A stretch of DNA of 64,000 bases from Octopus vulgaris (Eukaryota): positions 12,896,001 to 12,960,000 of the forward strand of contig OX597828.1 of NCBI GenBank assembly GCA_951406725.2. The letters run 5' to 3'. The notes under the pieces were generated by a model that did no database searches, was not told the DNA's origin, and saw only the letters and a program-made list of their open reading frames with translations. The stretch's first letter is position 1; the number at the start of each line of letters is the position of its first letter. Positions 14,013 through 15,268 of the stretch are shown piece by piece. The position numbers and the translations under genes were made by a program.

Positions 14013-15268
14013 CGTACGGGACGCCGCTTGGCTGACCGGTTCGCGGAACACCTCCGTGACATCCCACGCCATTTCCGCTCCACCGGTTACTCCTTGCAAC
14101 ACCTGTCTGTGTTCGGATTGTCCTTGCACAGAGGCCATCCGGATTCCCGTTTGCGCCGTGAACAGGAATTAATCTACTCTCTTCGCTCTTCGCTCTTTCA
14201 CGCCATTTGGTCTCAACTCTCCCCTCCCTCTCATCTAACCTCCCCCTATCATCTAACCTCCCCCCGACTCCTACTTCTCTTCAGTCCTTCATCTTTTCAC
14301 CCCACTCTCTTTCCCTCCTCTTCTTTCCTCTTTCTTCTTCCCTCTTCCCCTTCTCTCTTTCTCTCTGCTCCCTCACTCCCCTTATCTCCCCTCCCCTCCT
14401 TCCCCTCCTTTCCCCTCCTTTCCCCTCCCCCCTCCTCCCCTCCTTTCCCATCCCCCTCCTCTTCTCCTCTCCTTCCTTTTCCCCCATCACTCTCACCCTT
14501 CCCTCTCCTCTCCTTCCTTCTCCCCACCCTTCTCTCTCTCCTCTCCTTCCTTCTTTCCCACCCCCACCCCCACCCCCTCATCTCATCTCTCCTCCCTCCT
14601 CCTCCCCTCTCCCCCTCATCTCCTCTCTCCCCTCCCCCTCCCCTCTCCCCCTCATCTCCTCTCTCCCCTCCCCCTCTACCTCATCTCCTTTCTCCCCTCC
14701 CCTTCATCTCTCTTCCTCCTCCACTCCTCCCTCTCTCTTCTCTCCCCTTTCACTCTCCCCACAACCCCCACTCTACCCCAACCCCCAGCCGAACCCACAC
14801 CCCACATGAGCTTTCCCCACCTCCCACCACACTACACTATACGACACTACACTACACCATACAACACTACACTTCACCATACGACGTTACACATCACATC
14901 ATACTACATACACACGTCCAGATCTTTCATACGCACATACATACTCTCTCATACACACACGCGCCCTTATGTTGGGGCGAGGTCATTTGACCTTGTTATC
15001 TCCCCTACTATCCCTCTTGCGTCTAACGTCTGATCTTTGACTTCTGGCCGAAATCAGACCGCCATATTGATTCGTTAGCTCCTGCACGCATTTTTTTTCT
15101 CTCCTTGTTTCTCTCCGTGTTTCTTTTCTGTGTATCTTTCTGTTGAAGAGCGTAGGCTCGAAACGTAAAAGACTTGTTTTATTTCTATTCCTGAGCGCCA
15201 TACTAATACAATTTTTAGTTTGTACTCCACCTGCCTTCGTCTTTTGTTTATTTTCGTAAAGCTTCCTG
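14013..15268 (+). mobile_element. Penelope-like element 3' part: GIY-YIG endonuclease fragment, low-complexity spacer and pLTR with hammerhead-like motif
   Basis: 14013-14190 encodes TGRRLADRFAEHLRDI..RHFRSTGYSLQHLSVFGL..RLRREQELIYSL, resembling the C-terminal half of a PLE GIY-YIG domain. Followed by a C/T-rich spacer, the motif at 15135-15172, then (TA)n. Confidence 0.8.

What the first reader, a model, noticed from the sequence alone, without database searches (positions are those of the whole stretch)
15135..15172. Family-wide non-canonical hammerhead core (U at position 6 plus an extra A) in a Penelope-linked repeat
Seen: UCUUU-CUGUUGA-A-GAGC-GUAG-GCUC-GAAA-CG-UA-AAAGA. This gives a 5-bp stem I, a 4-bp stem II with a tetraloop, palindromic stem III (ACGU) and a GUA triplet. 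Four other copies (360-395, 10660-10695, 15476-15510, 22921-22958) also have U where the consensus CUGANGA has A6. Stem I covaries: UCUUU/AAAGA here, CCUUU/AAAGG at 22921. This copy lies downstream of a GIY-YIG fragment (14013-14190). Established: Penelope-like elements carry minimal type I hammerheads with palindromic stem III that cleave as dimers, and A6 is normally near-invariant. Inference: an amplified family using a variant core that standard CUGANGA searches would miss, or one that keeps the fold without catalysis.
Basis: partly seen in the sequence, partly recalled or inferred. Interest (0 to 1): 0.75.

Follow-up and report, generated by a model that had tools for sequence, protein, structure and literature searches.

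The report
Altered-core hammerhead in Penelope-like retroelement
A very abundant jumping-gene lineage in this animal genome carries a hammerhead-shaped RNA motif in which one normally fixed core letter is U instead of A, kept through several waves of spread while the positions free in working hammerheads changed, so it is likely a slowed, helper-dependent self-cutting RNA, but cutting is untested.

Summary
The motif is real. It is the minimal type I hammerhead in the terminal repeat of a Neptune-type Penelope-like element. Among exact genome matches with this stem II, 18,928 of 19,868 have U at core position 6; copies picked by flank alone give 73 of 78. Near-intact elements carry U6 in both terminal repeats. 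Across seven subfamilies (flanks 57-89% identical), 0 of 11 core and 0 of 16 stem positions changed, while position 7 took four letters and position 17 only A, C or U. Two first-reader points fail: the extra A is a published feature of these hammerheads, and the cited stem I covariation is a private change. Real double swaps are few. Canonical A6 families coexist and insert alike. Best reading: an attenuated, dimer- or protein-assisted ribozyme; U6 is predicted to shut the monomer. No cleavage evidence was found. I found no A6U hammerhead in print, but Lunse 2017 was not readable. This scan noted an A6U family in another genome (e1-9559914). New variant of a known kind.

The parts
15135..15172 (+). 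Minimal type I hammerhead motif, U6 variant, youngest large subfamily (S1a)
   Evidence: matches the published minimal-hammerhead consensus at every position except 6
15136..15139 (+). Stem I 5' strand; pairs with 15168-15171 (4 conserved bp; the fifth pair 15135/15172 is not conserved)
15140..15146 (+). Core C3-U4-G5-U6-N7-G8-A9; U6 at 15143, free position 7 at 15144
15147..15147 (+). Extra nucleotide between A9 and G10.1, a known feature of Penelope hammerheads
   Evidence: PMC4209133
15148..15159 (+). Stem II (4 bp) with a 4-nt loop
   Evidence: 100% of cells paired in 17 representatives, one pair swapped on both sides in 2
15160..15167 (+). G12-A13-A14, 4-nt palindrome 15.1-16.1 (15163-15166, predicted intermolecular stem III), H17; predicted cut between 15167 and 15168
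   Evidence: sequence; position 17 is A, C or U in subfamily consensuses; cut site inferred from hammerhead numbering
15051..15262 (+). Terminal-repeat (pLTR) core; most genomic copies are about 200-nt stubs of this part, ending at 15259-15262 in TA repeats
14010..14240 (+). C-terminal part of the GIY-YIG endonuclease of a 5'-truncated Neptune-type element
   Evidence: 28 of 30 loci with this stretch carry the U6 motif 0.45-0.9 kb downstream on the same strand
14240..15050 (+). Pyrimidine-rich 3' UTR joining the ORF end to the pLTR core
   Evidence: same layout in L074
15475..15512 (+). Second U6 motif of an older subfamily, separate insertion 340 nt downstream, with stem mismatches
359..396 (-). 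U6 motif, subfamily S3
10659..10696 (-). U6 motif, subfamily S2 (G7)
22921..22958 (-). Degenerate U6 motif, subfamily S4 (G7, U17; private U4>C)

Best explanation
This motif sits in the terminal repeat of an amplifying Neptune-type Penelope-like retroelement, has U at core position 6 throughout its lineage, and is likely a slowed hammerhead ribozyme that would cut after position 17 only when dimerised through its palindrome or helped by the element's own protein. Shown: the element context, the fixation of U6, and conservation of the core and stems across subfamilies. Predicted: U6 removes A6 contacts and allows a short helix (U4.G16.2, G5-C15.2, U6-A15.1) that shuts the single motif and competes with palindrome pairing. 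Inferred: most insertions are copied from RNA that is intact at this site, starting about 95 nt downstream of it, so low cleavage is tolerated or favoured, while a residual cleavage step keeps the core under selection.
For: Context: L074 reads motif - 1098-codon open frame - motif, with RVT_1 at E 8e-8, YIDD, a Cys linker and an endonuclease; L071 has the same layout with residues 377-1094 unbroken at 94% identity. Fixation: U6 in 18,928 of 19,868 exact matches and in 73 of 78 flank-selected copies with an ungapped motif. Selection pattern: over 7 subfamily consensuses the core varied at 0 of 11 positions and the stems at 0 of 16, against 63 of 117 gap-free flank columns (Fisher p 6e-4 for the core). 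Position 7 took four letters and position 17 took A, C, U but never G. G17 impairs minimal hammerheads (PMC3884650, abstract start in listing). One unselected copy (L007:697) has both-sided swaps in both stems with the core untouched (p about 0.001 per copy, post hoc). Folding: median probability of the G5-C15.2 pair is 0.78 in 28 natural U6 motifs and 0.02 in 11 natural A6 motifs. Literature: natural A6C is slow but active (PMC3088659 section 8; PMC7151607), and a Penelope hammerhead cleaves only with its protein and is not needed for insertion in vitro (PMC11167929 passages).
Against: No cleavage data. Of 87 flank-selected loci at most 1 (L269, ambiguous) begins at the predicted cut. Changes in the CUGA turn gave low activity in a mutational scan, with no rescue except the C3/G8 swap (PMC9901934 passages). 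Loop II (0 of 4) and the extra A (0 of 1) are also invariant in the lineage, which catalysis does not demand. Position 17 changed only about four times, so the absence of G is weak evidence. The subfamilies form one ladder and are not independent, and the flanks are low-complexity and may mutate faster. The L007 variant is single-copy. The closing helix is weak in the oldest C7/C17 copies (probability 0.00-0.13 in four of them), and its three-pair form is only 0.2 kcal/mol below the open form. A canonical A6 family makes the same 200-nt stubs spanning an intact cut site, so U6 is not needed for amplification.
Confidence: 0.5

Rival explanations
1. The motif is catalytically dead and is kept as a fold or sequence that the element's protein binds, or that pairs two RNAs, during reverse transcription.
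For: Loop II and the extra A are invariant within the lineage though loop II varies among A6 families. No clear copy starts at the cut. Insertion in vitro does not need cleavage (PMC11167929). Position-6 changes are damaging in model hammerheads (PMC9901934, PMC7151607).
Against: The two motif positions that vary clearly between subfamilies, 7 and 17, are those that are free in active hammerheads, and 17 stays within H. A dead motif has no obvious reason to follow that rule.
Confidence: 0.3
2. U6 is a loss-of-function change that hitchhiked in a successful master element; the motif is a relic under no selection.
For: One ladder-like lineage; few compensatory changes; a small A6 clade nested in the lineage shows the site can flip (4 copies, support 0.82). 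An unchecked scan note describes another family here that spread after changing catalytic letters (e1-8672774).
Against: 1 of 29 constrained motif positions varied against 63 of 117 flank columns (p 1.5e-7), and that one is a CpG site in a 5-copy group. Summed contig depth peaks about fourfold on the motif over its flanks in four runs.
Confidence: 0.12
3. The U6 core is fully active in cells through a compensating contact or a different metal ion, as A6C is with Mn2+.
For: A6C cleaves well in Mn2+ (PMC7151607, parts 1-2 of 4). U6 was kept through all seven subfamilies, and the nested A6 clade did not take over.
Against: No compensating change is visible: U6 and nested A6 copies share stems and loop. 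The monomer is predicted to be shut. No ends at the cut.
Confidence: 0.08

Closest known systems
Minimal type I hammerheads (min-HHR) of metazoan Penelope-like elements (Cervera and De la Pena 2014, PMC4209133; parts 1-2 of 4 and supplement passages read)
   Same: In pLTRs; short stem I; extra H after A9; G10.1-C11.1; palindromic 15.2-16.2; H17; U-rich flank; mostly solo copies
   Different: Position 6 is U. Their consensus has A6 (their descriptor required it), and the core variant they report is U3-A8. Stem II is 4 bp, against 7-8 bp in Schistosoma.
A6C hammerhead of phage Bcep176 (PMC3088659 section 8; PMC7151607)
   Same: Natural substitution at core position 6
   Different: C rather than U; one phage sequence with measured low activity, against about 19,000 exact copies and no assay here
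Poseidon element PAc of Anolis and its protein-assisted hammerhead (PMC11167929, passages)
   Same: pLTR-ORF-pLTR layout; hammerhead in the pLTR; copies span the uncut site; internal start of reverse transcription
   Different: Poseidon clade; no position-6 change is mentioned in the passages read; there the ORF start overlaps stem II, here the ORF lies hundreds of bases downstream
Neptune-clade Penelope-like elements (PMC8557442, passages and supplement rows)
   Same: [quoted passage not shown]
   Different: That paper describes canonical hammerheads in such elements; no RT tree was built here, so Nematis is not formally excluded

Membership tests
Penelope minimal type I hammerhead | Located in both pLTRs of a Penelope-like element | tested here: met
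   L074 and L071: motif-ORF-motif
Penelope minimal type I hammerhead | Core CUGANGA with A6 | tested here: not met
   U6 in 18,928 of 19,868 exact matches and 73 of 78 flank-selected copies; filed as a variant, not a consensus member
Penelope minimal type I hammerhead | Other ten core positions (C3, U4, G5, G8, A9, G12, A13, A14, A15.1, U16.1) | tested here: met
   Invariant in 7 of 7 subfamily consensuses
Penelope minimal type I hammerhead | Extra nucleotide after A9, G10.1-C11.1 pair, palindromic stem III, H17 | tested here: met
Penelope minimal type I hammerhead | Stems I and II supported by covariation | tested here: inconclusive
   With A6 sister families: 9 cells with both-sided change, 0 of 500 shuffles reach it. 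U6 only: 2 pairs, 4 cells; pairs measure reached by 74 of 500 shuffles. Rows were hand-picked and related.
Penelope minimal type I hammerhead | Self-cleavage after position 17 as a dimer or with protein | not testable with these tools
   No raw RNA reads offered; genomic cut footprint at most 1 of 87
Neptune-clade EN+ Penelope-like element | Single ORF with RT and C-terminal GIY-YIG endonuclease | tested here: met
   RVT_1 E 8e-8; YIDD and endonuclease motifs. Pfam did not report the endonuclease domain.
Neptune-clade EN+ Penelope-like element | CX2-5CxxC linker between RT and endonuclease | tested here: met
   Present in L074; one Cys changed in L071; resembles Neptune1_Nv
Neptune-clade EN+ Penelope-like element | Placement in the Neptune clade by RT phylogeny | not tested
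Non-LTR retrozyme | Tandem 150-400-nt non-coding units with one hammerhead each | tested here: not met
   Copies are solo stubs in TA repeats or ends of coding elements; the two motifs 340 nt apart in the window belong to different subfamilies

The most novel reading that the evidence does not exclude
U6 is a selected gate: it locks the single hammerhead shut by pairing the core with its own palindrome, so cleavage happens only when the element's protein or a partner RNA opens it. This would be a natural, tens-of-thousands-copy hammerhead with a regulated non-consensus core, and position 6 would be a recurrent tuning site in Penelope ribozymes.
Probability: 0.2. Interest if true: 0.75.

Novelty: new variant of a known kind. 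Interest (0 to 1): 0.5.

Why it matters
What the hammerheads of Penelope-like elements do is an open question: they are weak in vitro, and in one system cleavage is dispensable for insertion. This lineage fixed a change at a position regarded as essential, kept everything else, and went on amplifying. It also supplies natural near-matched U6 and A6 copies and near-intact coding elements, so the role of cleavage can be tested directly. If active, A6 is not an absolute requirement and descriptor searches undercount these ribozymes by about 19,000 copies in this genome alone. If inactive, it shows selection for a non-catalytic role of the fold.

Tried and rejected
Alternative register with a U3-type core two bases downstream: rejected by inspection, since it breaks stems I and II and fails in G7 subfamilies. 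Retrozyme array: rejected (solo stubs; neighbouring motifs are from different subfamilies). Rfam: no hammerhead among the 150 of 327 window hits shown, none at the motif, and none at a canonical A6 sister motif, so uninformative. Pfam on the 70-residue fragment: 0 families. RNA evidence: no RNA holder listed; all laid runs were contigs and cannot show ends; X10 laid 0 records on the L007 variant, which proves nothing. The 'other letters' table lists no alternative at 15143 but also omits variants known from the genome (G7, U17), so it was used only as weak support. Cut-site footprint: at most 1 ambiguous of 87. 'U6 explains the 200-nt stubs or the success of the family': rejected, since an A6 family does the same. 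Pairing of U6 with the conserved downstream block: no matching covariation seen by inspection. Genome-wide reading of flanks for all copies and a count of U6 motifs with other stems were not obtained, so subfamily results rest on sampled loci. Lunse et al. 2017 was not held. The repeat finder was swamped by microsatellites; one script timed out.

Full report
Observation. The motif is at 15135-15172 on the plus strand as written. An ungapped scan finds the four other copies, all with U at position 6: 15475-15512 (+), 359-396 (-), 10659-10696 (-) and 22921-22958 (-). The window lies in a 2.8-Gb genome of 227 contigs; its size and TA-rich repeats suggest an octopus-like animal, which is my inference.

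How general is U6. Exact genome-wide pattern counts with this stem II and a 4-nt loop gave U6 18,928, C6 or G6 584 and A6 356, with 0 for each reversed control. Among the first 100 U6 matches listed, position 7 was U 37, A 28, C 22, G 13 (counted by eye). Three searches that used only the 3' flank gave 87 non-self loci. Of these, 78 had an ungapped motif, with U6 in 73, C in 4 and A in 1; the other 9 were truncated, gapped or rearranged and were left out of that count. Contigs from four runs with four organism labels hold the family, and summed depth peaks about fourfold on the motif over its flanks. The A6 count understates canonical families: an abundant A6 family with a 3-nt loop II (40 hits at 94-100% identity, 2090 candidates) was outside the pattern.

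Element. The stretch at 14010-14240 is the end of a Penelope endonuclease. Of 30 loci matching it, 28 carry the motif on the same strand 0.45-0.9 kb downstream, all with U6. L074 reads motif, a 1098-codon open frame, motif; the frame has RVT_1 at E 8e-8, YIDD, a CX2-5CxxC linker and endonuclease motifs. L071 has the same layout, with residues 377-1094 unbroken at 94% identity. The linker resembles Neptune1_Nv in the supplement of PMC8557442. The window copy is a 5'-truncated member. Its closest 40 terminal repeats are 97-100% identical, so amplification is recent.

Selection. A tree of 152 copies built on flanks and the outer stem I strands (core excluded) separates 9 A6 sister copies (support 1.0) from a ladder of U6 subfamilies; one further A6 sister copy (L089) falls inside on a very long branch. 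The ladder runs from old copies (about 10% from their consensus) to young ones (1-3%). Four A6 copies form a small nested clade (support 0.82), likely a reversion; inner supports are modest. Across seven subfamily consensuses with flanks 57-89% identical, variable positions were: core 0 of 11 including U6, stems 0 of 16, loop II 0 of 4, extra A 0 of 1, palindrome centre 1 of 2 (a CpG site in a 5-copy group), positions 7 and 17 2 of 2, gap-free flanks 63 of 117 (Fisher p 6e-4 for the core). Position 17 was A, C or U. Caveats: the subfamilies are related, groups were assigned by hand from the tree, most loci were fetched with queries containing the motif, and the flanks are low-complexity.

Covariation. 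Both-sided swaps exist between U6 and A6 families in stem I, and within U6 copies at one stem I and one stem II pair (4 cells in 3 copies). L007:697, found as a bystander, has both swaps with the core untouched (simulated p 0.0011 for one copy, post hoc). It is single-copy, with a matching contig in a second organism label. The other two copies came from a search seeded with L007 and are biased.

Mechanism. Copies end at 15259-15262, about 95 nt past the predicted cut. Of 29 flank-selected young copies, 21 begin at 15051-15077, 6 extend beyond 14900, and none begins at the cut. Over 87 loci at most one ambiguous case does. The copied RNA was therefore intact, or re-joined, at this site. The A6 family shows the same anatomy in 24 loci, so this is not special to U6. 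Folding of natural 38-mers predicts that U6 lets U4-G5-U6 pair with 15.1-16.2: median probability of G5-C15.2 is 0.78 in 28 U6 motifs and 0.02 in 11 A6 motifs, weak in the oldest subfamily. This would shut the monomer and compete with the palindrome needed for dimers. It is a prediction on non-independent sequences.

Literature. PMC4209133 (parts 1-2 of 4; supplement passages, one file not searchable): the extra nucleotide, palindrome and G10.1-C11.1 are conserved features, the consensus has A6, the reported core variant is U3-A8, and activity is low even as dimers. PMC3088659 (passages and section 8) and PMC7151607 (parts 1-2 of 4): natural A6C is slow in Mg2+ and good in Mn2+. PMC9901934 (passages): CUGA-turn mutants have low activity. 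PMC11167929 (passages): protein-assisted cleavage, not needed for insertion in vitro, no RNA ends at the cut. PMC8557442 (passages; supplement rows), PMC6765202 (passages and section 11 part 2), PMC7229834 (passages), PMC11014351 (passages) and bioRxiv 10.64898/2026.07.22.740005 (passages; supplements not seen) showed no U6 variant in what I read. Searches for hammerhead plus A6U listed one twister paper, not opened; U6 core words had 0 occurrences in the 20 of 22 papers listed; searches with octopus or cephalopod found nothing on this motif. Lunse et al. 2017, the largest survey of such variants (recalled), was not held and could contain it.

Earlier scan notes, unchecked: an A6U family in another genome (e1-9559914), an A6C family in a shark-like genome (e1-9834341), and other core variants in this genome. 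They agree with my reading but are not independent evidence.

Verdict. A real, lineage-wide A6U variant of the known Penelope minimal hammerhead, under apparent purifying selection, in a recently active element. Attenuated, assisted cleavage 0.5; conserved but dead fold 0.3; neutral relic 0.12; fully active 0.08. New variant of a known kind, interest 0.5.

Noticed in passing
window 54783-55115 (-): Separate Penelope-type RT fragment, 65% identical to the L074 frame, next to a TA repeat and with no motif of this family nearby.
   Followed up: partly
L016:1177-1385; L187-L210: Abundant canonical A6 hammerhead family with a 3-nt loop II; about 200-nt stubs with a sharply fixed 5' end about 100 nt before the predicted cut in 20 of 24 loci, possibly a transcription start.
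   Followed up: partly
window 15051-15077 and equivalents: 5' ends of young U6 stubs cluster 90-115 nt upstream of the predicted cut, with a mode at 15063-15064; a start site in the pLTR or a strong reverse-transcription stop.
   Followed up: partly
L074:2540-2915 and 6890-7292: The two terminal repeats of one near-intact element are only 82% identical and belong to different subfamilies, against 95% in L071; fits a tandem precursor or nested insertion better than one RNA circle.
   Followed up: partly
L031, L033, L034, L035 (motif near 1496-1533): Small A6 clade nested in the U6 lineage; L033 and L035 have endonuclease remnants about 65% identical to L074; natural controls for assays.
   Followed up: partly
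L078:719 (+); L034:2668 (-); L085:7512 (+): Unrelated hammerhead-like motifs with A6 cores and other stems turned up as bystanders.
   Followed up: no
L142, L155 (G000:C3:90599822-90600180): Inverted pair of terminal-repeat stubs 98% alike, the inverted arrangement described for Penelope insertions.
   Followed up: no
window 42650-44130: Long near-perfect inverted repeats (arms up to 462 nt, 97%) within a low-complexity short-period array.
   Followed up: no
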